Of a DNA stretch of 64,000 nt, positions 9,737-20,840 are shown piece after piece. Origin of the DNA: Candidatus Collierbacteria bacterium RIFOXYD2_FULL_45_13 (GTDB taxonomy: Bacteria; Patescibacteriota; Microgenomatia; UBA1400; MFAQ01). The notes beneath the pieces are model-generated. The model did not search any database and was not told where the DNA came from. It worked only from the letters and a program-made list of their open reading frames with translations. The position numbers and the translations under genes are program-made. Each line of letters starts with the position of its first letter. The first letter of the stretch is position 1. The stretch spans positions 801,444 to 865,443 of the forward strand of contig MFAS01000001.1 in assembly GCA_001774685.1 (NCBI GenBank). The letters run 5' to 3'.

Positions 9737-10684
9737 CTATTTCAAGAATTTATCATGGATTTGCTTCAGTTGGGGATTGGTCACGTGAGTATAGATTTGG
9801 GTCGTTGCTACGTTTTTGTGACCCAACATTTCTTGCACGCTGCGCAGGTCCGCTCCTTGCTGGAGTAGGGTAGTGGCAAAGCTATGGCGAAGCACGTGTG
9901 GGCTCACCTTAATCGGCAAACCCGCTGATCGCCGATATTTCTCCACAATTCTCTGGATCCCTCTTATCGACAGCCTGGCCTTCTCATTGCCCATAGTTGG
10001 ATCCCAGTCACCGCTTTTGGGAACCCGCACCCACAAAGCTCTAAATGGATCTGTCCGGGCCGATAGATATCGACCCAACCATTGAGTGGCCCTCTCCGAC
10101 AAGAAAACCAGTCTCATTCTTCGACCCTTCCCCAAGATCCCGAACTCTCTCTCCTTCAAATCAATTTTATCAATATCCAGCTTGGCGAGTTCCGAAACAC
10201 GCAACCCTGTACTAAACAGCACTTCCAAAATAGTTCTATCACGCAGACCGCTGATATTTGAAGTATCCGGAGCCACGAGAAGTCTCTCCACCTGCTCCCG
10301 ATCTAGAAATTTTATTTGATGTTCTCCCGGCTTCGGTAGGTCCACTTTTTCCGCCGATAAAGTTTTTACCCCTTTTTTTGCGCAATATTTCAAAAACGCT
10401 CTCAGAGCGATGACGTAATAACTCTGCGTGGTAGGGGAGAGTCTCTTACCCTCTTTTGTCTCATATCTGGCCAAAAACAATCGATATTTACGAACCATCT
10501 CGCTAGTTAGTTTTTCTATATATTCCTGCTCGTAATGCTTCTCGAACCATTTGCGGAACATTCCCAGATAGTGAGAGTAGTTCCGTATCGTGAACTTGGA
10601 GTAGTTTTTCTCTACCTCAATAAAGCTCAGATATCGCTTAATCAAGATTCTAAGCCCTAAATCGTTTACCGGTTTTTTAACCAC
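9737..10684 (-). CDS. Tyrosine site-specific recombinase, XerC/XerD family
   Basis: The C-terminus reads HVLRHSFATTLLQQGADLRSVQEMLGHKNVATTQIYTHV (R..H..R..Y catalytic signature). The N-terminal SYYVIALRAFLKY core-binding domain is present, and the 315-aa length is typical of chromosomal Xer recombinases. Confidence 0.85.
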   Translation of the reverse strand: MVKKPVNDLGLRILIKRYLSFIEVEKNYSKFTIRNYSHYLGMFRKWFEKHYEQEYIEKLTSEMVRKYRLFLARYETKEGKRLSPTTQSYYVIALRAFLKYCAKKGVKTLSAEKVDLPKPGEHQIKFLDREQVERLLVAPDTSNISGLRDRTILEVLFSTGLRVSELAKLDIDKIDLKEREFGILGKGRRMRLVFLSERATQWLGRYLSARTDPFRALWVRVPKSGDWDPTMGNEKARLSIRGIQRIVEKYRRSAGLPIKVSPHVLRHSFATTLLQQGADLRSVQEMLGHKNVATTQIYTHVTNPQLKQIHDKFLK

Positions 10685-10815
10685 AATCCATCATACCAAA
10701 TTATTGTGCGACACCGATTCGGGCAGGGGAATATCCCATAGCCTTGACAGGCCGCAAAACCTAACTATAATATATCAAAGCTCTTTGATTCCATATGCTA
10801 TTTAGGAGGTAGAAC

Positions 10816-11313
10816 ATGAAACTCGAGCACGAACATGGTCAAGGTCTGGTCGAATACGCTTTGATCTTAGTGTTGGTTGGCATTTCCGTCATTGTCATTC
10901 TCCAGTTTCTTGGTCCCGTAGTTTCCGCAGCTCTGGCTGGTGACCAAACAAGCATCATCTGGCTGGTAATCGGTGGTGGTGTAATCACCCTGATTCTTGG
11001 TGCAGCCTACTACGTGCTCGCCAGATTCGAAAAGTTCTCCGATTCGTACCAAGACGAAGGCAAGGAAAAGACAACCGATAAGACCGAAAAAGGACAAGGT
11101 CTGGCAGAATTTGCCCTCATCGTCCTCCTGGCAGCTATTGTCATCATGGCTGTGTCCATGTGGTATGAGCCAATTGTCACCCTCTTGCTATCCCTGCCCG
11201 TCACTTGGGGCACTGTCATAGGAATCATACTGGTTGGTGGTCTAATATTGGTAGGTCTCGGAGTCGCCATTAACCGTCTATGGAATAAAATCGACAAATA
11301 CCCTTACGAATAA
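10816..11313 (+). CDS. Flp/Fap-type prepilin-like protein with an internal tandem duplication (two G-x-x-x-x-E-Y/F units)
   Basis: Unit 1 reads MKLEHEHGQGLVEYALILVLVGISVIVIL. Unit 2 reads DKTEKGQGLAEFALIVLLAAIVIMAV. Each unit is followed by a second hydrophobic helix. The motif G..(L/V)EYALI matches the Flp pilin N-terminus. Upstream lie a TATAAT-like box and a GGAGG ribosome-binding site. Confidence 0.55.
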   Translation: MKLEHEHGQGLVEYALILVLVGISVIVILQFLGPVVSAALAGDQTSIIWLVIGGGVITLILGAAYYVLARFEKFSDSYQDEGKEKTTDKTEKGQGLAEFALIVLLAAIVIMAVSMWYEPIVTLLLSLPVTWGTVIGIILVGGLILVGLGVAINRLWNKIDKYPYE

Positions 11314-11332
11314 TTCCCTCAAATAAACCCTC

Positions 11333-12187
11333 TCACACGAGAGGGTTTTTAATTATTCCATTGTATGGTTGTTCCGGAGTAATCTTCTTTTGCTCTTCCG
11401 TCAGACCGCAAGGAACTCGATCAACAACGACGACTTCTTTAATTTTCGTCGCCACGGTAAGCCTCCACACAATATTCCTGAGCTGCATTCGATAATATTC
11501 ATCTGCATTTCCTTCCTGAACCCAAGAGCCTCCAGTGCCCCAACAGGCAATTACCAGAAGGCTAGTCGCCGACGGAGGAATTAGTTGTACATCTCTCCCT
11601 GTCAAACGTTGTCTGTTAGACAGCTCCAAGGTTCTATCAAAGAAGTCGTTCTTGGGATATGCAAACATCGCCGCCGTCGGTAAATCCGCGCAAATTAAGA
11701 TTGCAGTCTTGGTCCCCGGTAGTAATAGGGATCTCTCATCAGCCACCAGGTCAAAACTGTTATTTTCTTCTATGGATGCTCCTGATCTTTTGTTTGTTAC
11801 ATCCACAATTTTCCCGCCTTTAATTAATAGCGCACTATTTCTTGGCCTGCCAGAATCTACAAATAGGGGAGTGCCAATAACAAATAGGGTCTTGATTCTC
11901 GTGGCCGAAAACTCCAACATTTCATCCAACCGCTCATTGATCAAGTTGCGGTTTGTTACTAAATCAGTAAAGGCATCACCTGCACAAGTAATTAGCTCCG
12001 GTCCGGCCACGATAGGAGTATCGGGTGACACAAAGTCAATCATTCTCCGGAACTCCTCCCAAGTATTTGCCGACACTCCGACAATTTCCGTTCTATCCAT
12101 CAGAGAATACCGGTGAATTCCGATCTCGCGGTAATATGTCTCCTGAAGCGAAAGGGGAGACAATCTCCCCTCCGGATAGATACTCAT
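11333..12187 (-). CDS. Carbon-nitrogen hydrolase (nitrilase/amidase superfamily)-like protein
   Basis: The 284-aa soluble protein contains TAILICADLPTAAMFAYP, which resembles the catalytic-Cys motif G..ICYE..FPE of CN hydrolases. Assignment is tentative. Confidence 0.35.
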   Translation of the reverse strand: MSIYPEGRLSPLSLQETYYREIGIHRYSLMDRTEIVGVSANTWEEFRRMIDFVSPDTPIVAGPELITCAGDAFTDLVTNRNLINERLDEMLEFSATRIKTLFVIGTPLFVDSGRPRNSALLIKGGKIVDVTNKRSGASIEENNSFDLVADERSLLLPGTKTAILICADLPTAAMFAYPKNDFFDRTLELSNRQRLTGRDVQLIPPSATSLLVIACWGTGGSWVQEGNADEYYRMQLRNIVWRLTVATKIKEVVVVDRVPCGLTEEQKKITPEQPYNGIIKNPLV

Positions 12188-12255
12188 CCGGTAAGTATAT
12201 CAAACCACATCACATACCACTACCCAAAAGCTGGTTTGTTGTCTAAAATAGACAC

Positions 12256-12543
12256 ATGTCCGAACTCGATCCAATCATTATCAACATTCCCTGTCCCACC
12301 AAAGAAGAGGGGATTAGGCTTTGTACAGAAATGCTCAAACAGGAGCTCTGTGGTACAACCAAGATCCAAGAAGGTGTTCATCTCATGTACGTCGAGGAAG
12401 GTGTTCAAGGATCAGACATTGTTCTTCTTAGTATAAAAACTACCAAAATAAATCTTGAAAAAATTCACGAATTTATCCTCAAAAATCACAGCTGGGGTAC
12501 ACCCTGCATCGAAGTTCTTCCCATGATGGTAGATATGTGCTAA
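12256..12543 (+). CDS. cutA: Divalent-cation tolerance protein CutA-like
   Basis: The 95-aa protein reads IINIPCPTKEEGIRLCTEMLKQELCGTTKIQEGVHLMYVEEG...LLSIKTTKINLEKIHEFILKNHSWGTPCIEVLPM. This follows the CutA1 pattern (CP..E.A..IA..L...LAAC ... S.Y.W.G.I ... KT ... HPYE.P..I.LPI). Confidence 0.55.
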   Translation: MSELDPIIINIPCPTKEEGIRLCTEMLKQELCGTTKIQEGVHLMYVEEGVQGSDIVLLSIKTTKINLEKIHEFILKNHSWGTPCIEVLPMMVDMC

Positions 12544-12689
12544 CAAATTGATGATGAAATAAAATGTTCATAGATAGTATATTCCCTCTGTCATCATCCA
12601 TATTTAGCATACGTATATCAAATCAAATCTCTAGAATATTTATCCTTTCCCCCCTTCACGTAAGTTTTTTACATTGCTACAATATATAA

Positions 12690-13550
12690 ATGACACCAAT
12701 TGTTTTCGCCATTATCACCGCCATCGGTTGGGCAACAGCCGACATCTTTGGTGGTTTAGTTGCCCGCAAAATAGGCGGATATTCATCGGCGATTTTGTCA
12801 TACATTATTAGCATTCTTCTTACTTCTTTTTACATCCCCTTTGCCTGGCACGAACTAAGTGGCATTACACCCACCACTATCGCTTGGTTATTGATCCTCA
12901 CCCCTATCGGGATTGCCCCACTCATTTCGTTATACGAAGGGTTCAAAGTCGGCAACCCCTCGCTTGTCGGTACCATCGCCAGCGCCTTTGGTGGTTTAGT
13001 TGCCATCCTCTCAGTTGTATTCCTTGGAGAAAAATTAAACGTTGCCCAAGTTATTTCAATTTTTGCCATAATACTAGGTCTCATCGTTTCTTCACTCGAC
13101 CTTAAGAACCTCAATACAAAGCAAATATTATCCGACAAAGGCATTCCTTTCGCCCTTGTATCATTACTTGCCTGGGGGATATATTACACTTTTGTTAAGA
13201 TCCCTCTGCAAAACATCGGCTGGTTCTGGCCAACGTATCTATCATATTGGGGATTTCCTTTAGTTTTAATATTCATGAAAATTAAGGGTATCAAATTAGT
13301 CTTGCCCAAAGAGAAAAAGAACATCGTATTCCTGTTAATCAACGGAGTTCTCCTTACAATCGCGCTCTTCGCCATCAACTACGCCCTGACCCTAGGACAA
13401 AGCTCTGTAGTTTCTCCCATCTCTAGCTCCTATCCGGCGCTCTTCGCCATCATCGCCTATTTTGTTTTTAAAGACAGACTTAATAAGCAACAAATTCTCG
13501 GCATTGCCATCACCCTCGCCGGTGTACTTTCCCTTGCCATTACGTCCTAA
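12690..13550 (+). CDS. EamA/DMT-family transporter
   Basis: The 286-aa protein has about 10 predicted transmembrane segments and two EamA-like halves. A TACAATAT box lies just upstream. Confidence 0.7.
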   Translation: MTPIVFAIITAIGWATADIFGGLVARKIGGYSSAILSYIISILLTSFYIPFAWHELSGITPTTIAWLLILTPIGIAPLISLYEGFKVGNPSLVGTIASAFGGLVAILSVVFLGEKLNVAQVISIFAIILGLIVSSLDLKNLNTKQILSDKGIPFALVSLLAWGIYYTFVKIPLQNIGWFWPTYLSYWGFPLVLIFMKIKGIKLVLPKEKKNIVFLLINGVLLTIALFAINYALTLGQSSVVSPISSSYPALFAIIAYFVFKDRLNKQQILGIAITLAGVLSLAITS

Positions 13551-13617
13551 TCCGAGGCTCATAGTACCCCTGTTATAATTCACAGGTATTCTTAACATTC
13601 TCATTCCGGAGGTTTCT

Positions 13618-14044: not shown

Positions 14045-15013
14045 TTACACCCTAATCAATTTCTCCAGCCACGGCAAATTTTCGTTTTTCCTTTTCCACC
14101 ACAAATCTTCCCAGATATAGTGGACAGCTAGTTGTTTATACTTCCCGTATTTTTCAAAATACTTTAGCAGGTCTGCCACCGCTACCGGGTTCTCCGGATC
14201 TGCCTCAAAAAAAATTTTGGAATAAATTTTCTGCTCCCATGGAGAAATGTGGTTGAAAAAATCCAGGTGATGAAACACATCAAAGAGCAAATACCAGACC
14301 GTAGCCGGGCCAACTCCATAGAGTCTTAGCAGTTCCGTTCTTTGCGGCTCCAAGTCCTTCTTTCTAAGATAATTTTCATCAATCAGACCCGCAGCAAACT
14401 GGTCATCTAACATCTTAATAGATTTCGCCCTGTATCCGACTTTTAAGTCTCTCAGACTTTCAACGCTCGCGTTTTTCAAGTCACCCGGTGCCCAGAAGCA
14501 AAACAATTCTATCCCCTCAAACGAAAGCTTCTTCCCATACTTTTCGATTAACGCTTTAAACATTTGCATCGACCTTCTTACTGTCGCGTTCTGCAGGACT
14601 ATCCCGATAATTAAATATTCATATAAAGAACTGGGGTGTCCGGGTTTCATCCCCCGCCATTTAGTAATGATAGGGGAGAGGGTCACATCTTTTTCAAAAG
14701 TGGCATAGAAATCGGACAAATCGAGCTGCAGATTGTATCTATACTCAATTTCCTTGGTCAAGGATGTGACAAACTCCTCACTCGGCTCAAAATCGGCATA
14801 GACGATAATTTGCAGTCGGGGATTGTCGACCTTTCCCACGTTCACGAACTTTAGGCCTAGATTCCTTCCTTCATGGTTCCACGTTTGCCACCAGGTACCT
14901 GGTTCCCACAGATTATCACCCGTCGTAAAGTGGTCCGGCTTGTGGAAAGTCGAATCAAAATCAAATGGCGCCAGGGGGGTGACGAATACTTCTCTTACCT
15001 TCTTTAATTCCAT
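14045..15013 (-). CDS. HhH-GPD superfamily DNA glycosylase-like protein (AlkA/Ogg-like)
   Basis: The segment IVLQNATVRRSMQMFKALIEKYG resembles the start of an HhH-GPD domain. The helix-hairpin-helix LRLYGVGPATVWYLLFDVF is followed by Asp, and the 322-aa length fits an AlkA/Ogg1-type two-domain glycosylase. Confidence 0.45.
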   Translation of the reverse strand: MELKKVREVFVTPLAPFDFDSTFHKPDHFTTGDNLWEPGTWWQTWNHEGRNLGLKFVNVGKVDNPRLQIIVYADFEPSEEFVTSLTKEIEYRYNLQLDLSDFYATFEKDVTLSPIITKWRGMKPGHPSSLYEYLIIGIVLQNATVRRSMQMFKALIEKYGKKLSFEGIELFCFWAPGDLKNASVESLRDLKVGYRAKSIKMLDDQFAAGLIDENYLRKKDLEPQRTELLRLYGVGPATVWYLLFDVFHHLDFFNHISPWEQKIYSKIFFEADPENPVAVADLLKYFEKYGKYKQLAVHYIWEDLWWKRKNENLPWLEKLIRV

Positions 15014-15049
15014 AGAGTTACCCTAACATATCCCGAAACAGGAGTCAAT

Positions 15050-15931
15050 CTATACTCTCACCCCTTTCGATTGGTTCTTAAGTTCCAACGCAGCATAAAA
15101 GCTGGAATCCAGCGAGATCCAGTTTTTTAGGTTATTTTTTATGTCTTCTACTAAACAGTCCAAGTCTCTTAACGTATCCAATAAATACAGGCGTTTATCA
15201 GATCTCCCAACTATCAGCCCCATCTCTTCCGTATCGTGATCCATAACATAGTCCGTAAGTAGTTTCTTTCCCTCTGGTGTTAATAGAAAAGTAGTTTTTT
15301 TGTCTACCATATCAGTAAGTGATCTGCCTATTGCCACAGGATCGGAACTATTATCAATCCACACAAACCCCAAACGAAAGGCAAACCCTTCTGCAGAGGC
15401 CATAGATTTGTACGGAAAGAACAACTTTGATGTTTCTGGGACCAATTCATGCAAGTACGAGAGCGACAACAGCCTAAGGGTTTGCCCGTTGCCATCGGAA
15501 TACGGGTGAATTAACATCCCCAGAGTGTTCATTACGGCAATGAATCTGAAAGTTGCAGCTTCAATTTTATCCTCTGGACAACTTCGTAGCTCGTAATAAA
15601 GTTCATCCATCAGTTGAAAATACTGATCGGTGCGTTCAGCCACCATTTCTTTACCGACATATTCAAACTCTACTACTTTGTCTCCAAAACGCACCTGAGA
15701 TTTTTCCCTGTATGCTCGAACCTCATCGGGTGCTTGACCAACAAGTTTTGAATAACCCTTATAAATCTGATTCCTTATCTGAGATACTCTGACTTCAAAA
15801 GCCAGGCCAAAAGTTACTTCGTGCGTTTCCTCCCATTCCCTCTGATTCTTAACTCTATTAATTCTGACTTGGGGCAGATCAAGGCTCTCGGAAGTCAGCT
15901 CTCCTTCGATACTCATACCAAATTCTATCAT
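15050..15931 (-). CDS. Fic/Doc (Fido)-domain protein
   Basis: The Fic motif HPYSDGNGQTLRLL corresponds to HxFx(D/E)GNGRxxR with the first Arg replaced by Gln. The gene lies 37 bp upstream of the glycosylase-like gene on the same strand. Confidence 0.75.
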   Translation of the reverse strand: MIEFGMSIEGELTSESLDLPQVRINRVKNQREWEETHEVTFGLAFEVRVSQIRNQIYKGYSKLVGQAPDEVRAYREKSQVRFGDKVVEFEYVGKEMVAERTDQYFQLMDELYYELRSCPEDKIEAATFRFIAVMNTLGMLIHPYSDGNGQTLRLLSLSYLHELVPETSKLFFPYKSMASAEGFAFRLGFVWIDNSSDPVAIGRSLTDMVDKKTTFLLTPEGKKLLTDYVMDHDTEEMGLIVGRSDKRLYLLDTLRDLDCLVEDIKNNLKNWISLDSSFYAALELKNQSKGVRV

Positions 15932-16030
15932 CTATACTCTAGCAAAGACCGAGCCTGTCTTTTGGATATCCTTTATAGTTGACACAACCCATAACGTGTC
16001 ATATACTCGACGAATATCCTTGTACTTTAA

Positions 16031-16798
16031 ATGGAGGTTATTGTGACGCATAAGTACACCTTTTTGGCCCCGAATATCAAAGTATCCTTGATGTTTGCCG
16101 ACCTGTTCGTGGTCGCATACGATCAACCGGAGATTATGGTCGAGGCCGTAGGTGATGACTATGTTTGTAGTCATCTGATTTCCAAAATTGTCGATCAAAC
16201 TCTCACCGTTTCCTTTCCTGTCCCTCTACTAAACGGTCGGTACACTTCAACCGGGAGTCCACAGCAGATCAACGGCACTCTTTGTGTAGACTTCGAACCA
16301 GTTGATCTTTCGCGCAAGATTCAGGTGGTCATACACATTCCCGGCAACACTAACCTGGATGTCAAAAAACTAATAGGGAACTCGCACATCGGAAACTTTC
16401 AAGGCGACCTCACCCTCCAAGGTTTCATGGGGTTCGAGAACTTCACCGGTGCTGTCGGAAACTGCGAGATCGGCGCTTCATCCAGTTTTAAAGCAAGTGT
16501 TGAAAGGGTTGTCGGAAACTTAATGGTGAATGGATCCAGCAGCGCCAAGGTGCAAATTGGCGAGGTGTCAAGTCCTTCTATCAAACTGGATCTCTCTTCG
16601 CACGCCCACGTTTCAATTTCCGGCGGTATTGCCATCTCGACGAAAGTCTCGGGCTCATCGGGGGCGACGGCCAGTCTTGATATAGCCTCAGAAATTGCAG
16701 ACCTATCGGGCTCCAGTGGAGCAAACATACATCTAAGACACTGCATCAAGCCACCCCGTATCAGTAAAAGCAGTGGTGCCTCAGTCAGTGTCGGTTAA
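16031..16798 (+). CDS. Beta-helix repeat protein, DUF2807/DUF4097-like (putative adhesin head-domain repeats)
   Basis: The protein has periodic G-(N/S)-x-x-(I/V)-x-x short beta-strand repeats (GNSHIGNFQGDLTLQ, GNCEIGASSS, GNLMVNGSSSAKVQIGEV, SGSSGATASLDIAS, SGSSGANIHL, SSGASVSVG). No signal peptide is obvious. Confidence 0.4.
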   Translation: MEVIVTHKYTFLAPNIKVSLMFADLFVVAYDQPEIMVEAVGDDYVCSHLISKIVDQTLTVSFPVPLLNGRYTSTGSPQQINGTLCVDFEPVDLSRKIQVVIHIPGNTNLDVKKLIGNSHIGNFQGDLTLQGFMGFENFTGAVGNCEIGASSSFKASVERVVGNLMVNGSSSAKVQIGEVSSPSIKLDLSSHAHVSISGGIAISTKVSGSSGATASLDIASEIADLSGSSGANIHLRHCIKPPRISKSSGASVSVG

Positions 16799-17821
16799 TA
16801 TTTCTCTTCACCCGTCCTTAGTGGCGGGTTTTTCACATCGTGAAAAAAAACAAGGGACAGACAGGTAGGGGAGAGGGGAAAGAAAAGCAAAATGTCTAAG
16901 ATAACCCATAATGTATAGACCGGCAAAACCTGGTTACCTATCTAAAAAAAATTTAATAAATATGATTATATAAATGGGTGAAGATCTTCTTTATCAATAT
17001 TTTAATAAAAATATCTCGGCTCAAAAATATTCAAAAATTATTAAAGATTTTTAAATAGGAAACATAGATAAAATTGTTTGTAATCATGTCGCAAGATTCC
17101 ATAAAAACCCACCTCTAAGCCTGCAAAAATCGGGCTCGTAGAATGCCCCTAAAACGGCTTCTGGAACTTTTTATGGCTAGTTAATCATTGACCAAATACC
17201 TTGATATATCCACCCAAAGCTAAAATCGAGATAATTGCGGAAAAACTTTCGGGTTTATCTACAATTAGGCACAATCTGAGGCTATTAGGCTCGAATACGA
17301 AAGAATTGGCCACAGACAAAGACCGGAGAACAGATTTACTGCAAGTTTCGGGATTATCTACAAATAATCACGGAACATAATAGATACTACTCCGGTGCCT
17401 GCCTTATCGAGATACGTCGCAAAAGTGTTATTGTGCGACGTATTAGAAATCATTCTTCTCTGTCTCCATGTTTTGGATAAATAGGGAACTATAGAATAGT
17501 GTCCGCATTCTTTCATCCCCTCGTTACACTAACTCCAACTCATCGTCGCCGGCAAATTCTAATAAAATATTATTATTCGCTTCCTCGTCGGTCTTATCTC
17601 GCCCGCCTTACGCGCCGTACCAAACAACCATATCAATCCCTATCACCTGGCAGTTATCCACAAACGGTGCCAATTTTCGTGAAAACTATGGGGTTTCGTG
17701 AAAACTATTATAGGCCCCATAACGTTATGGGTTTATTATAGGTCTCATAGTTATAGGCCCTCTCCCCTTCCAACCCGTCCCCGTATTTTTTTTGAGTTCT
17801 TGAATTTTTGAGTTTTTTTAT

Positions 17822-18673
17822 TTATCCCACCCAAGAAGTTGTTAGGAATCCAATAATAAAAATAATAATAACTGTCACCCCATACTCCAACAGACTCTCC
17901 AGATATACCCGGCTGGACAATCTCTGCTCTAAAATTCCCAACAGAGCATACAGAATCGACGTAAGCATTAAACCACCCATAAATGGCTTTACCGGCCAAA
18001 AAGATAAGGCCATTCCGCAGATTGCAATGACCCAGCTTACTACCAAAGAGTACCGCCCGGCATCATGAAGAATATCTCCCTTAAGGTCCACGCTCCAAAA
18101 ACTGGGGAAAGATAAAATCACTGAAACTATAAAAACCATCGGTGCGACCCACCAGAAAGGCAATTTCAGGCTTAAAGCTACCGTATAGAAAAATAACGAA
18201 GCTACGAGCGTCAGAATAAAGTTTACCGATCTGGCTGCCCGAAAAAGCTGGATGGTTCTAATCGAAGCTACCGAAAAAATATTCTCAATTAGTAGGATTC
18301 CATACATAGCCAAAGCATAGAAGACAAAATACAAGATTCTAAAAAGTCCAGCTAAGAGCATCGATGTTTCCAACTGGAAAGCTCTGCCAAACATACTAGG
18401 AACAGCCGTTGGCAAAAAATTGGCAAACAAGCCACTACCCAAAGTAAACATCACCGGCAATACCATCAACGTGAGCCATTCAATGCCCTTCAAATCGTCA
18501 AACAACACCCACACCGATAATACATAGGAAACCGCCGAAACTACGAGGTATAGTCCAAAACGGTAATCAACAGGCGCCGTGGTCGTTAGCCACAGTGCCA
18601 CCGAAATGATGCCACTGATAAATATAAATCTTGATCTTTTAGACATATTATGCCAAGTTACTCCACACATCAA
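17822..18673 (-). CDS. Polytopic membrane protein, hypothetical
   Basis: The 283-aa protein has about 8 predicted transmembrane segments. No motif was recognised. Confidence 0.45.
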   Translation of the reverse strand: MMCGVTWHNMSKRSRFIFISGIISVALWLTTTAPVDYRFGLYLVVSAVSYVLSVWVLFDDLKGIEWLTLMVLPVMFTLGSGLFANFLPTAVPSMFGRAFQLETSMLLAGLFRILYFVFYALAMYGILLIENIFSVASIRTIQLFRAARSVNFILTLVASLFFYTVALSLKLPFWWVAPMVFIVSVILSFPSFWSVDLKGDILHDAGRYSLVVSWVIAICGMALSFWPVKPFMGGLMLTSILYALLGILEQRLSSRVYLESLLEYGVTVIIIFIIGFLTTSWVG

Positions 18674-19172
18674 CTACGTCGTCTAAATCAGATAGCAAGT
18701 CGGTAAGTTCCGTAAGTTGACGCTTATCAATGTCGGACACCATGACTGTCGGAACAGGAATGATAGACTTCATATACGATACAGATCCCGGTCCGCCCAG
18801 CTTAGCTCCATGCTTATCTAAGATATTCTTAACTTCACCTGCTGTCCTATTCCTATTATCGGTCACAGCCGTGATTAAGATACCTACACCAAACGGTCCG
18901 TATGCCTCATATGTTATTTCTTCAGCAGCGGCTCCCCCACCTACCCCCGAAGCTTTTTCGACCGCTCTTTTGATATTCTCCATTGGCATGTTTACCGACC
19001 GGGCTTCTTCCACGCAGGCTCTGAGATAAGGATTGGCTTCGATGTCACCAGAGCAACCTTTTTTTACGGCTATATGGATCTTTTTAGCTATTTTAGTAAA
19101 CACAGAACTTCTCTTGTTATCCTCAATCGCCTTCTGATGTTTTATGGTTGACCACTTGGAGTGACCGGACAT
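18648..19172 (-). CDS. yebC: YebC/PmpR-family DNA-binding regulator (start trimmed to MSGHSKW)
   Basis: The protein starts MSGHSKWSTIKHQKAIEDNKRSSVFTKIAKKIHIAVKKG, the canonical YebC/TACO1 N-terminus. At about 175 aa it is shorter than typical family members. Confidence 0.8.
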   Translation of the reverse strand: MSGHSKWSTIKHQKAIEDNKRSSVFTKIAKKIHIAVKKGCSGDIEANPYLRACVEEARSVNMPMENIKRAVEKASGVGGGAAAEEITYEAYGPFGVGILITAVTDNRNRTAGEVKNILDKHGAKLGGPGSVSYMKSIIPVPTVMVSDIDKRQLTELTDLLSDLDDVVDVWSNLA

Positions 19173-19246
19173 AGTTTGAATTCTATCAGGAGCCAAGACC
19201 CAAAACAACTTGACAGGCAGTTAAATCATCTATATCATTTCTCAGC

Positions 19247-19951
19247 ATGAACAATGACAACATAAACGATTTACAGCAAGAGTCGATTAAATCCGCCATC
19301 GCCAAAAAATGGAGTGAGGCCATCTCACTTAACGAAAAGATTCTTGAATTAACCCCTGATGATCTACCCACCCTCAATCGTTTAGGAATCGCCTTTTCTA
19401 TGAATGGCGAAAACAAAAAGGCTATTGCGAGTTTTGGCCAGGTTTTGGCCATTGATCCACATAACCAAATTGCCAAAAACAATCTAACCAGACTCAAAGC
19501 AAACAAAAAACAAGGCTTGGCCAATCCATTCTTTCAAACCGTAAGTTTTATTGAAGAACCCGGAAAGTCTAAGGTCGTCCCACTTGTTAGCCAAGGAGAA
19601 CCCAAAGTGTTTTCGACTTTAAATATCGGAGAGCCCGTGGAGCTATCACTTTCCAAACACAAAGTAAAAGTCACCAGAGGAAAAGACTTTATTGGCTACC
19701 TGCCCGACAATCTATCCCACCGCTTGGTTAAACTTATCGGTGCCGGGTACAAATACAAAACCATCATGAAATCCGTCAATGCCAAAAATCCTCAGGTGTT
19801 TATTTTGGAAGCCAAATCATCCAAGCGTTTAAGAGGCATCCCCTCCTTTCCCCTTGATGACAAAGAACACTTACCGTCTCTTTCGGCTGGAGAGTCGAGT
19901 GAGACCCCACCACTGGAAATCTATGATCCGTTACTGGGAGACGAAGCCTGA
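19247..19951 (+). CDS. TPR-repeat protein
   Basis: TPR-like helices are present (AIAKKWSEAISLNEKILELTPDDLPTLNRLGIAFSMNGENKKAIASFGQVLAIDPHNQIAKNNL). Confidence 0.5.
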   Translation: MNNDNINDLQQESIKSAIAKKWSEAISLNEKILELTPDDLPTLNRLGIAFSMNGENKKAIASFGQVLAIDPHNQIAKNNLTRLKANKKQGLANPFFQTVSFIEEPGKSKVVPLVSQGEPKVFSTLNIGEPVELSLSKHKVKVTRGKDFIGYLPDNLSHRLVKLIGAGYKYKTIMKSVNAKNPQVFILEAKSSKRLRGIPSFPLDDKEHLPSLSAGESSETPPLEIYDPLLGDEA

Positions 19952-19958
19952 GAAACCC

Positions 19959-20840
19959 TCATTTTAACCAGATATCTATTCCCTTCTTATTTAGCTCCTT
20001 CACCGAACGGCGCTTTTCACAATTCATCTGTCTCAACAAAAAATTTTCAGTAATCGGATAGTTCCCGTGAGAAACAAAAATACATCCGGAACCCTCAACA
20101 TCTTCACCTGGATCGGTTTTAACCTCCACCACCCTGATACCGGCTGACTCAAGCTGCTTGGAGACCGAAATACCGAGACCGGCAAGACCGGATAAATTAT
20201 TTATCGAGGCGTCTACGTTTTCATTCAAAATAGTCTCTAGTAAAAATTTATTTTTTGTCCACAAAGCAGTCACATTATTAAAAACCAAAAACTCTTTTCC
20301 GTCCGGCTCGGTTATTTTATCCAACACGTTGCCTGGAATTTCCATTTCTAGTATTTTCTTTGAATCAACCGCATCCGACAAATATTTTCTAATTAAAAAT
20401 CTGTCTCTAAAGCTTAAGTCTGTTTTCAAATTAACCTTATGTAGGCTTCCCAAAACCGTTTCAACAGAAGGAGTTCCGTCTACTTTAATCGCTCTTGAAA
20501 TGACCACCCCCATCGATAACCCCAACGATCTCTCAATAATTTCAATCGGTCGTCTTTCGGCAACACCATAATCCCAAAGAGAGACAATCGGATATTGAGC
20601 CAAGGAATTGTAGATCTTGATCTTTAGTTTATCTGGGAAATCAACCCACCCCACAATGTCCTCGTCCGGCCGCAAAACCAACAAGGAACAGCCGGTATCC
20701 CCCACTACTACCAAATTAATTCCGGACTGACTGGATAAAATTCCTTCTTTATAAACTCTAAAACCGATCATAAATACCAGTATCGTTAGAAAGAATAACC
20801 CGATCGACCTAAATGGCCTGCCCTTAATATTCACCTTCAT
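19959..20840 (-). CDS. Membrane-anchored LCP (LytR-CpsA-Psr)-like protein; assignment tentative
   Basis: An N-terminal transmembrane segment is followed by INLVVVGDTG...LLVLRPDEDIVGWVDFPDKL, which resembles the LCP-domain start (NILLIGSDSR...SLLSIPRD). Confidence 0.3.
   Translation of the reverse strand: MKVNIKGRPFRSIGLFFLTILVFMIGFRVYKEGILSSQSGINLVVVGDTGCSLLVLRPDEDIVGWVDFPDKLKIKIYNSLAQYPIVSLWDYGVAERRPIEIIERSLGLSMGVVISRAIKVDGTPSVETVLGSLHKVNLKTDLSFRDRFLIRKYLSDAVDSKKILEMEIPGNVLDKITEPDGKEFLVFNNVTALWTKNKFLLETILNENVDASINNLSGLAGLGISVSKQLESAGIRVVEVKTDPGEDVEGSGCIFVSHGNYPITENFLLRQMNCEKRRSVKELNKKGIDIWLK

What the first reader, a model, noticed from the sequence alone, without database searches (positions are those of the whole stretch)
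14045..15931. Fic-domain protein with altered active-site motif co-transcribed with an HhH-GPD glycosylase-like gene
The Fic protein has the core motif HPYSDGNGQTLR. The first conserved Arg of HxFx(D/E)GNGRxxR, which contacts the nucleotide phosphate, is replaced by Gln, so the protein may be an atypical AMPylase or phosphocholinase. The next gene, 37 bp downstream on the same strand, encodes a 322-aa protein with an HhH-GPD-like fold (LRLYGVGPATVWYLLFDVF). A Fido enzyme paired with a DNA-glycosylase-fold protein is not a standard toxin-antitoxin arrangement. It could be a two-gene modification/repair or toxin-immunity module. Both lie in a block of accessory-looking genes bounded by a 1-kb non-coding region.
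Basis: partly seen in the sequence, partly recalled or inferred. Interest (0 to 1): 0.5.

Follow-up and report, generated by a model that had tools for sequence, protein, structure and literature searches.

The report
Orphan Fic gene beside core glycosylase-like gene
Both genes are real, but they are neighbours by accident: a rare Fic-type enzyme gene with an unusual, conserved active-site change was dropped into a variable slot in front of a glycosylase-like gene found throughout this bacterial group, so they do not form a two-gene system.

Summary
The sequence observation holds. A 293-aa Fic-fold protein (15050-15931, minus strand) carries the motif HPYSDGNGQTLR. It lies 36 nt upstream of a 322-aa protein with a full Ogg1/AlkA fold (14045-15013, minus strand).

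The proposed two-gene module is not supported.
- The glycosylase-like gene is a core gene of Patescibacteria (CPR): more than 2,900 homologues, the best 120 at 66-99% identity.
- The Fic gene is rare. It sits next to the glycosylase-like gene only in near-identical strains.
- In the next relatives (glycosylase-like protein 86% and 83% identical) the same slot holds a RibD_C gene. Homology breaks exactly at the Fic stop codon and resumes in a conserved 36-nt stretch upstream of the glycosylase-like gene that contains a promoter-like element.
- Thirteen loci of distant Fic relatives contain no glycosylase-like gene, and the eleven compared all-against-all share no neighbour.

Two things are worth noting.
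- The Arg-to-Gln change is not decay. It is invariant across a divergent Fic clade whose genome-derived members are almost all Patescibacteria (about 100 clusters; motif H[P/Q]xxDGNGQTx[R/K]). Within the lineage the gene is under purifying selection (dN/dS about 0.15). It has no inhibitory helix and no antitoxin.
- The glycosylase-like family invariably has Ala and Ser where Ogg enzymes have their catalytic Lys and Asp, so it is probably not a canonical glycosylase.

Interest is moderate to low.

The parts
15050..15931 (-). Gene for a 293-aa Fic-fold protein. It belongs to a rare, largely Patescibacteria (CPR) Fic clade with an invariant Gln at the first-Arg position of the motif.
15473..15508 (-). 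Fic signature loop HPYSDGNGQTLR. His142, Asp146, Gly-Asn-Gly and Arg153 are kept; Gln150 replaces the first Arg.
   Evidence: Translation. H142, N148, G149 and Q150 are invariant, and D146, G147 and T151 at least 90% conserved, in 53 family members at 21-39% identity. Motif listing.
15014..15049 (-). 36-nt spacer between the Fic stop codon and the ATG of the glycosylase-like gene. It holds a promoter-like element (TTGACT, 17 nt, TAGGGT, 6 nt, ATG) that is conserved in relatives lacking Fic.
   Evidence: Alignment A5: homology to L007 and L010 begins right after the Fic stop codon. blastn breakpoints. Reading it as a promoter is my inference; the consensus scan did not list it.
14045..15013 (-). 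Core Patescibacteria gene for a 322-aa Ogg1/AlkA-fold protein (N-terminal beta domain plus HhH domain) that lacks the canonical catalytic Lys and Asp.
   Evidence: More than 2,900 homologues, the best 120 at 66-99% identity and nearly all 322 aa. TIGR00588 1e-14. PDB profile hits 4ejy 1e-13 and 3i0w 4e-12. AF2 pLDDT 87. Foldseek E 1e-12 to 1e-10, target-normalised TM 0.64-0.78. dN/dS 0.06-0.13.
14237..14329 (-). HhH hairpin and the loop that replaces 'GPD': LRLYGVGPATVWYLLFDVFHHLDFFNHISPW. Ala237 sits at the Ogg catalytic-Lys position and Ser257 at the catalytic-Asp position.
   Evidence: HMMER alignments to CacOgg and MBOgg1. In the AF2 secondary structure Ser257 is the residue just before helix 258-269. 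A237 and S257 are invariant in 121 sequences. A low-confidence hhalign alternative puts D251 opposite AlkA D238.
15051..16828 (.). Lineage-specific 1.8-kb cassette (Fic gene plus the divergent 255-aa gene) in a variable slot. In the nearest other species a RibD_C gene (with or without a 211-aa gene) occupies it.
   Evidence: blastn breakpoints against L007, L009 and L010. Gene tables. tblastn finds Fic and the 255-aa protein only in L001 and L004-L006.
16031..16798 (+). 255-aa protein of unknown function (Gly/Ser-rich repeats in the C-terminal half), transcribed divergently from Fic. A promoter-like TTGACA-17-TATACT lies at 15979-16007.
   Evidence: ORF. No Pfam, PADLOC or PDB match. dN/dS 0.10. 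Promoter-like site. Absent from the 11 other Fic-family loci searched by tblastn.
16829..16921 (.). Conserved non-coding segment that forms the far boundary of the variable slot.
   Evidence: 78-83% identical to L007, L009 and L010 immediately beside their different cargo genes.

Best explanation
These are two unrelated genes placed side by side by a cassette replacement. The 322-aa gene is a core, vertically inherited Patescibacteria gene that keeps its own short upstream control region. In one Collierbacteria-like lineage, the variable slot just upstream of that region holds a 1.8-kb cassette: a 255-aa gene and, divergently, a Fic gene. Sister species carry a RibD_C gene there. The Fic protein belongs to a sparse, largely Patescibacteria clade of stand-alone Fic proteins. 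In this clade the catalytic loop is H[P/Q]xxDGNGQTx[R/K]. The catalytic His, the metal-binding Asp, the Asn, the Gly-x-Gly anion nest and the last Arg/Lys are kept. The first Arg, which salt-bridges the nucleotide beta-phosphate, is always Gln. I infer that it is still a nucleotide-dependent protein-modifying transferase of the AMPylase type. The altered beta-phosphate contact probably changes donor preference or nucleotide orientation. It works without an inhibitory helix or an antitoxin. Its target is unknown, and nothing points to the neighbouring protein. The neighbour has the Ogg1/AlkA fold but invariant Ala and Ser at the Ogg catalytic Lys and Asp positions. It is therefore more likely a lesion- or abasic-site-binding protein, or a non-canonical enzyme, than an 8-oxoG or alkylbase glycosylase. 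Shown here: folds, motif conservation, selection, synteny and breakpoints. Inferred: enzymatic activity, donor, target and promoter.
For: Synteny. Adjacency occurs only in L001 and L004-L006 (Fic 92-94% aa). L007-L009 (Collierbacteria, glycosylase-like protein 86%) and L010-L011 (83%) have RibD_C in the slot. Homology breaks at window 16828 and resumes at 15050, which is the Fic stop codon. The 36-nt upstream region is conserved in all. A Fic-family HMM finds nothing in eight loci around glycosylase-like orthologues (contexts). Eleven Fic-family loci have no glycosylase-like gene, no 255-aa gene and no shared neighbour; two further loci lie beside RecA and MreB, and neither gene table lists a protein of glycosylase-like size.

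Fic clade. There are 104 representatives. Gln is invariant in a 53-sequence alignment at 21-39% identity. Seven of the nine genome loci are labelled Patescibacteria lineages. dN/dS is 0.14-0.16. The fold is confirmed. There is no conserved (S/T)xxxE(G/N) motif. The abutting 88-aa ORF has dN/dS 1.4 and is therefore not a gene. The first Arg binds the beta-phosphate (PMC3667792). All five motif classes catalogued in 2015 keep Arg at that position (PMC4454073).

Glycosylase-like protein. Lys and Asp are strictly conserved catalytic residues in OGG enzymes (PMC3397491).
Against: No activity data exist for any member of either family. The Fic AF2 model is only moderate (pLDDT 62, built from 4 sequences), so the geometry around Gln150 is unknown. 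With a 36-nt gap, the same strand and no good terminator, read-through co-transcription cannot be excluded, so a lineage-specific functional link is not formally ruled out. The promoter reading of the spacer rests on a weak -10 (TAGGGT). The Ser257 = catalytic Asp assignment comes from sequence alignments and predicted secondary structure. One low-probability hhalign alignment to E. coli AlkA instead pairs the nearly invariant Asp251 with AlkA Asp238.
Confidence: 0.7

Rival explanations
1. One reading: Fic and the glycosylase-fold protein form a co-transcribed two-gene module, acting either as toxin-immunity or as a modification/repair pair.
For: Same strand, a 36-nt gap and no strong terminator. 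The pair is kept in four contigs of the same lineage.
Against: Those contigs are near-identical strains. The next relatives have RibD_C in the slot. Thousands of glycosylase-like homologues contrast with about 100 Fic clusters. Thirteen Fic loci lack the glycosylase-like gene, and eight glycosylase-like loci lack Fic. The proximal upstream region of the glycosylase-like gene is conserved independently of Fic.
Confidence: 0.04
2. The Fic protein is a catalytically dead pseudoenzyme (a binding or scaffold protein) because it has lost the beta-phosphate Arg.
For: The first Arg is present in all five catalogued motif classes (PMC4454073) and salt-bridges the beta-phosphate (PMC3667792). Several family members also vary the His or the third motif position.
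Against: His, Asp, Asn, both Gly and the last Arg/Lys are retained, and Gln itself is invariant, across sequences only 21-39% identical. That pattern indicates a constrained active site. Purifying selection is clear.
Confidence: 0.15
3. The Fic gene is the toxin of a toxin-antitoxin or phage-defence system whose partner is the divergent 255-aa gene or an unrecognised small ORF.
For: Fic and the 255-aa gene travel together in one cassette. There are weak PADLOC hits to SoFic and PDC-S04 Fic models, E about 1e-4.
Against: The 255-aa protein is absent from the 11 other Fic-family loci searched by tblastn, and those loci share no neighbour. The 88-aa ORF upstream is not under purifying selection (dN/dS 1.4). 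There is no inhibitory-helix motif. The PADLOC hits cover only the catalytic loop. Neighbours elsewhere are housekeeping genes such as RecA, MreB, IleRS-like and CCA-adding enzyme genes.
Confidence: 0.08

Closest known systems
Canonical Fic AMP-transferases (FICD/HYPE, SoFic, NmFic, VbhT, Bartonella Bep Fic domains)
   Same: Fic fold with a beta-hairpin flap (predicted strands 77-82 and 85-90) followed by core helices. The catalytic loop sits at the N-terminus of a helix. His, Asp, Gly-Asn-Gly and the last Arg are kept.
   Different: The first Arg of HxFx(D/E)GNGRxxR is an invariant Gln. Phe is usually Tyr or variable. There is no (S/T)xxxE(G/N) inhibitory helix and no antitoxin. Sequence similarity is limited to about 33 residues around the loop (FICD E 5e-4). 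The family has its own conserved N-terminal Arg-rich helices (R23, R26, Q30, R48, R53) and an LSYLHE...FFPYK segment.
Fic variants with altered chemistry (Doc kinase HxFx(D/N)(A/G)NKR; AnkX phosphocholine transferase)
   Same: They set a precedent that small changes in the Fic loop go with a different donor or a different donor orientation (PMC4454073; my own knowledge for Doc and AnkX).
   Different: Those variants keep the first Arg and change other positions. The pattern here (GNGQ with the last Arg/Lys kept) is not among the five classes catalogued in PMC4454073. A full-text search for 'GNGQ' together with 'Fic' listed no Fic-related paper among its top 15 results.
Bacterial Ogg1 enzymes (C. 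acetobutylicum CacOgg, T. tengcongensis MBOgg1) and AlkA
   Same: Full-length architecture and fold. The HhH hairpin GVGP is identical to that of CacOgg and MBOgg1. Best PDB matches by sequence and by structure.
   Different: Catalytic Lys is Ala237 and catalytic Asp is Ser257, both invariant. The Gly/Pro-rich 'GPD' loop is replaced by the His-rich HH(W/L)DFFNH(V/I)S. Scores are far below the TIGR00588 cutoff (54 vs 398) and below the Pfam HhH-GPD cutoff (21.4 vs 26.2).
S. pombe Mag2, a non-catalytic HhH glycosylase paralogue
   Same: A glycosylase-fold protein without base-excision activity that binds DNA or abasic sites (PMC4433238). It is a plausible functional analogy for a family lacking the catalytic Asp.
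   Different: No detectable specific relationship was tested. Mag2 lacks the Ogg/AlkA N-terminal domain (my own knowledge). The family here is far more strongly conserved, with 62 invariant positions in 121 sequences.

Membership tests
Fic/Fido superfamily (Pfam PF02661) | Fic fold: helical core with a beta-hairpin flap | tested here: met
Fic/Fido superfamily (Pfam PF02661) | Score above the Pfam gathering threshold | tested here: met
   25.7 bits against a cutoff of 24, so marginal. 26 of 53 family members hit PF02661.
Canonical AMPylating Fic (HxFx(D/E)GNGRxxR) | Catalytic His, acidic residue, Gly-Asn-Gly nest and second Arg | tested here: met
   H142, N148 and G149 are invariant. D146 and G147 are at least 90% conserved. 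Position 153 is R or K.
Canonical AMPylating Fic (HxFx(D/E)GNGRxxR) | First Arg (beta-phosphate salt bridge) | tested here: not met
   Gln150 is invariant in the 53-sequence alignment. The role of the first Arg is taken from PMC3667792.
Canonical AMPylating Fic (HxFx(D/E)GNGRxxR) | AMP transfer from ATP to a protein hydroxyl | not testable with these tools
   Needs biochemistry.
Fic classes I-III (alpha-inh regulated; FicTA toxin-antitoxin) | Inhibitory (S/T)xxxE(G/N) helix in cis, or in an adjacent small antitoxin | tested here: not met
   A regex search of Fic, P0001, P0002 and the neighbouring ORFs finds no conserved match. The matches in P0003 do not align with conserved columns. The 88-aa upstream ORF has dN/dS 1.4. 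No neighbour is shared among 11 loci.
Ogg1 8-oxoguanine glycosylase/lyase (TIGR00588) | Ogg1/AlkA architecture with an HhH motif | tested here: met
   Foldseek hits to 4ejy, 3f0z, 2jhn, 1mpg and hOGG1, E 1e-12 to 1e-10, target-normalised TM 0.64-0.78.
Ogg1 8-oxoguanine glycosylase/lyase (TIGR00588) | Catalytic Lys in the HhH (GVGxK) | tested here: not met
   GVGPA: Ala237 aligns with the Lys of MBOgg1 GVGPK and is invariant in 121 sequences.
Ogg1 8-oxoguanine glycosylase/lyase (TIGR00588) | Catalytic Asp at the start of the helix after the GPD loop | tested here: not met
   Ser257 aligns with the Asp of CacOgg PVDTW and MBOgg1 PTDVW. It directly precedes helix 258-269 and is invariant. Caveat: a 17%-probability hhalign alignment pairs D251 with AlkA D238.
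Ogg1 8-oxoguanine glycosylase/lyase (TIGR00588) | Family score cutoff | tested here: not met
   54.4 bits against a cutoff of 397.85.
HhH-GPD (Pfam PF00730) | Score above the gathering threshold | tested here: not met
   21.4 bits against 26.2, and only residues 138-202 match. A few homologues carry a precomputed PF00730 hit.
Conserved two-gene module or operon (Fic plus glycosylase-like gene) | Adjacency conserved across independent lineages | tested here: not met
   Adjacency is found only in near-identical strains. It is absent from 8 other glycosylase-like loci and 13 other Fic-family loci.

The most novel reading that the evidence does not exclude
The largely Patescibacteria 'GNGQ' Fic clade has an active site rebuilt around an invariant Gln, perhaps with an Arg supplied from the conserved N-terminal helices. 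It would use a donor or perform a protein modification different from the known Fic chemistries. Because these stand-alone, unregulated enzymes occur in episymbiotic bacteria, they could act on host-cell proteins. Separately, the universally conserved Ogg/AlkA-fold family lacking Lys and Asp could be a new non-glycosylase function built on this scaffold.
Probability: 0.2. Interest if true: 0.6.

Novelty: new variant of a known kind. Interest (0 to 1): 0.33.

Why it matters
The reported 'Fido plus glycosylase' module would have been a new kind of system, but the evidence shows it is an accident of gene order.

Two smaller points remain. First, there is a coherent Fic clade, found almost only in Patescibacteria, in which the Arg that all catalogued Fic classes use to hold the nucleotide beta-phosphate is always Gln. 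The clade also lacks any of the known inhibitory devices. It is a natural test case for how the Fic loop tunes donor choice. Second, a very strongly conserved core Patescibacteria protein is annotated as '3-methyladenine/8-oxoguanine glycosylase' although it lacks both catalytic residues of that family. Repair capacity inferred for these reduced genomes from such annotations may therefore be overstated.

Tried and rejected
- Inhibitory helix: a regex search for (S/T)xxxE(G/N) in Fic, its homologues and all neighbouring ORFs found nothing conserved.
- Small antitoxin: the 88-aa ORF abutting the Fic ATG was called as a gene on one ENA contig. It has dN/dS 1.4 and overlaps the start of the 255-aa gene and its promoter-like site, so I rejected it.
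- PADLOC, PHROGs and NCBIfam gave only loop-level Fic hits and nothing for the neighbours.
- The afdb50 library was unavailable.
- hhalign of the Fic family against E. coli Fic was colinear but not significant (E 0.11).
- hhalign of the glycosylase-like family against E. coli AlkA was low-confidence and gave an alternative Asp assignment.
- A profile search of the 5.8-billion-protein database was limited by its candidate cap and added only one new member.
- Cluster look-ups returned no names or taxonomy for the ten family members queried.
- Literature searches found no description of a GNGQ Fic motif or of Fic proteins in Patescibacteria.
- The 1-kb non-coding stretch gave no Rfam hit, no tRNA or tmRNA, and non-significant folding z-scores.

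Full report
**Observation**

The two minus-strand ORFs are as described. One is 15050-15931 (293 aa) and the other is 14045-15013 (322 aa). They are separated by 36 nt. HPYSDGNGQTLR is encoded at 15473-15508, and the HhH string lies within 14237-14329. Nearby genes (CutA1, EamA, DUF5656, YebC) and the names attached to homologues place the window in a Collierbacteria-like member of the Patescibacteria (CPR).

**The Fic protein**

Pfam Fic is just above threshold at 25.7 bits against 24, covering residues 77-159. Single-sequence PDB similarity is confined to the catalytic loop of FICD. The word-indexed search found only three relatives among 5.8 billion proteins.

An exhaustive profile search of 1.84 billion representatives found 104 relatives, 83 of them at E<=1e-10. 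These are mostly 300-480 aa and share the N-terminal ~175 residues. In these sequences the loop is H[P/Q]xxDGNGQTx[R/K]. In a 53-member alignment at 21-39% identity to the query:
- H142, N148, G149, Q150 and Y159 are invariant.
- D146, G147, T151 and S158 are at least 90% conserved.
- N-terminal R26 and R48 are invariant, and R23, Q30 and R53 nearly so.

In solved ATP complexes the first motif Arg makes a two-hydrogen-bond salt bridge to the beta-phosphate, and the second Arg binds the gamma-phosphate (PMC3667792). All five motif classes catalogued in 2015 keep Arg at that position (PMC4454073). I found no paper describing a GNGQ loop.

The Gln is therefore a conserved clade character, not decay. 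This is supported by dN/dS of 0.14-0.16 between strain variants.

No (S/T)xxxE(G/N) motif is conserved in cis or in any neighbouring ORF. The 88-aa ORF abutting the Fic start has dN/dS 1.4, so it is not a gene.

Genome hits come from Woesebacteria, Saccharibacteria, Amesbacteria, Dojkabacteria, Moranbacteria, Shapirobacteria and an unclassified Patescibacteria bin. There are two exceptions. One is a 2-kb contig binned as Pseudomonadales. The other is a weak 20-residue match in a Mycoplasmataceae bin.

**The glycosylase-like protein**

It matches TIGR00588 (ogg) at 1e-14 over residues 82-301, but far below the cutoff. Pfam HhH-GPD is below threshold. A 29-sequence family profile hits MBOgg1 (4ejy, 1e-13), CacOgg (about 4e-12), hOGG1 (about 4e-6) and AfAlkA. 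The AF2 model (pLDDT 87, pTM 0.86) matches these and E. coli AlkA over ~300 columns, with target-normalised TM 0.64-0.78. The fold claim is therefore correct.

The active site is not canonical. HMMER aligns GVGPA-TVW with GVGPK-VAD, so Ala237 corresponds to the catalytic Lys. It aligns H(V/I)SPW with PVDTW and PTDVW, so Ser257 corresponds to the catalytic Asp. In the model Ser257 is the last residue before helix 258-269, which is the position of the catalytic Asp in HhH-GPD enzymes. Both residues are invariant in 121 sequences. So is a His-rich set: H28, H248, H255 and H298 are invariant, and H24 and H126 nearly so. OGG enzymes have strictly conserved catalytic Lys and Asp (PMC3397491). One low-probability hhalign alignment to AlkA instead pairs the nearly invariant Asp251 with AlkA Asp238, so I treat the Asp loss as probable, not proven. 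A non-catalytic HhH paralogue, S. pombe Mag2, sets a precedent (PMC4433238).

**Are the two genes a pair?**

The two families differ enormously in abundance. The glycosylase-like protein has more than 2,900 homologues, with the best 120 at 66-99% identity and almost all exactly 322 aa. The Fic clade has about 100 clusters.

Fic directly precedes the glycosylase-like gene only in contigs of the same lineage: L001 and L004-L006, with Fic 92-94% and the glycosylase-like protein 87-89% identical. In the next relatives (L007-L009, Collierbacteria GCA_001000965.1, 86%; L010-L011, 83%) the flanking genes are syntenic, but the slot holds RibD_C, plus a 211-aa gene in L010.

blastn places the breakpoints at window 16828 and 15050. 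The replaced segment is 15051-16828, that is, the 255-aa gene plus Fic.

The alignment of the junction shows homology resuming immediately after the Fic stop codon. It resumes in a 36-nt stretch, TTGACT-17 nt-TAGGGT-6 nt-ATG, that is conserved in all four lineages. I read this stretch as the own proximal promoter of the glycosylase-like gene. That is an inference, and the -10 is weak.

Three more distant orthologue loci have an aminotransferase fragment, an EamA gene or an unknown gene upstream. A Fic-family HMM finds nothing in eight such loci.

Conversely, eleven loci of distant Fic relatives contain no glycosylase-like gene, no 255-aa gene and no neighbour shared between loci. Two more sit beside RecA and directly after MreB, and neither gene table lists a protein of glycosylase-like size. 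The adjacency is therefore a lineage-specific accident of insertion into a variable slot.

**Mechanism**

The Fic protein most likely remains a nucleotide-dependent protein transferase. The Gln would hydrogen-bond rather than salt-bridge the beta-phosphate. This may change donor preference or geometry, and it may be compensated by the conserved N-terminal arginines. It has no known autoinhibition and no partner. Target, donor and cellular role are unknown. The 322-aa protein probably binds damaged or abasic DNA, or uses non-canonical catalytic residues. These statements are inferences.

**Verdict**

What remains is a new motif variant of a known enzyme family, plus a mis-annotated core protein family. 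Both are of moderate interest to specialists.

Noticed in passing
window 16799-17821: A 1023-nt gene-free stretch in an otherwise compact genome. It is conserved with a different Collierbacteria species: 79% over about 660 nt with many indels and no reading-frame preference in tblastx, and 83% over 16829-16921. There is no Rfam match at E<=1 and no tRNA or tmRNA. MFE z-scores are only -1.6 and -0.9. Its function is unexplained.
   Followed up: partly
window 14046-20000 vs L004 5014-10968: Mosaic identity. There are zero mismatches from about 16500 to 20000, then 201 mismatches (about 2-17% per 250 nt) from 14046 to about 16500. Further on, identity to L004 is only about 83%. The breakpoint lies inside the 255-aa gene. 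This points to recent recombination between strains or a chimeric metagenome assembly.
   Followed up: partly
window 14045-15013 and homologues P0004-P0123: The Ogg/AlkA-fold family is annotated in public sources as '3-methyladenine/8-oxoguanine DNA glycosylase'. It has 62 invariant positions in 121 sequences, including a His cluster (H28, H248, H255 and H298 invariant; H24 and H126 nearly so), but Ala and Ser at the catalytic Lys and Asp positions. It deserves its own study.
   Followed up: partly
window 15932-16198 (-): An 88-aa ORF ends exactly at the Fic start codon. Its 3' part was called as a gene on ENA contig L001. It has dN/dS 1.4 against L004 and overlaps the start of the 255-aa gene on the other strand, so it is a spurious call and not an antitoxin.
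   Followed up: yes
window 10000-13600; L004 10974-16574; L007 10959-20969: The region on the other side of the glycosylase-like gene is also variable between relatives. MFS and ABC transporter genes are present or absent. EamA, CutA1 and an Flp/Fap-like pilin gene are rearranged. In relatives a XerC/D-type integrase and a Y1 transposase lie nearby. The glycosylase-like gene is thus a conserved island in a plastic neighbourhood.
   Followed up: no
L003 102-329: In the locus of a 31%-identical Fic relative (P0003), a 75-aa ORF ends 4 nt before the Fic start. It has no (S/T)xxxE(G/N) motif and no counterpart at the other loci, so its significance is unknown.
   Followed up: partly
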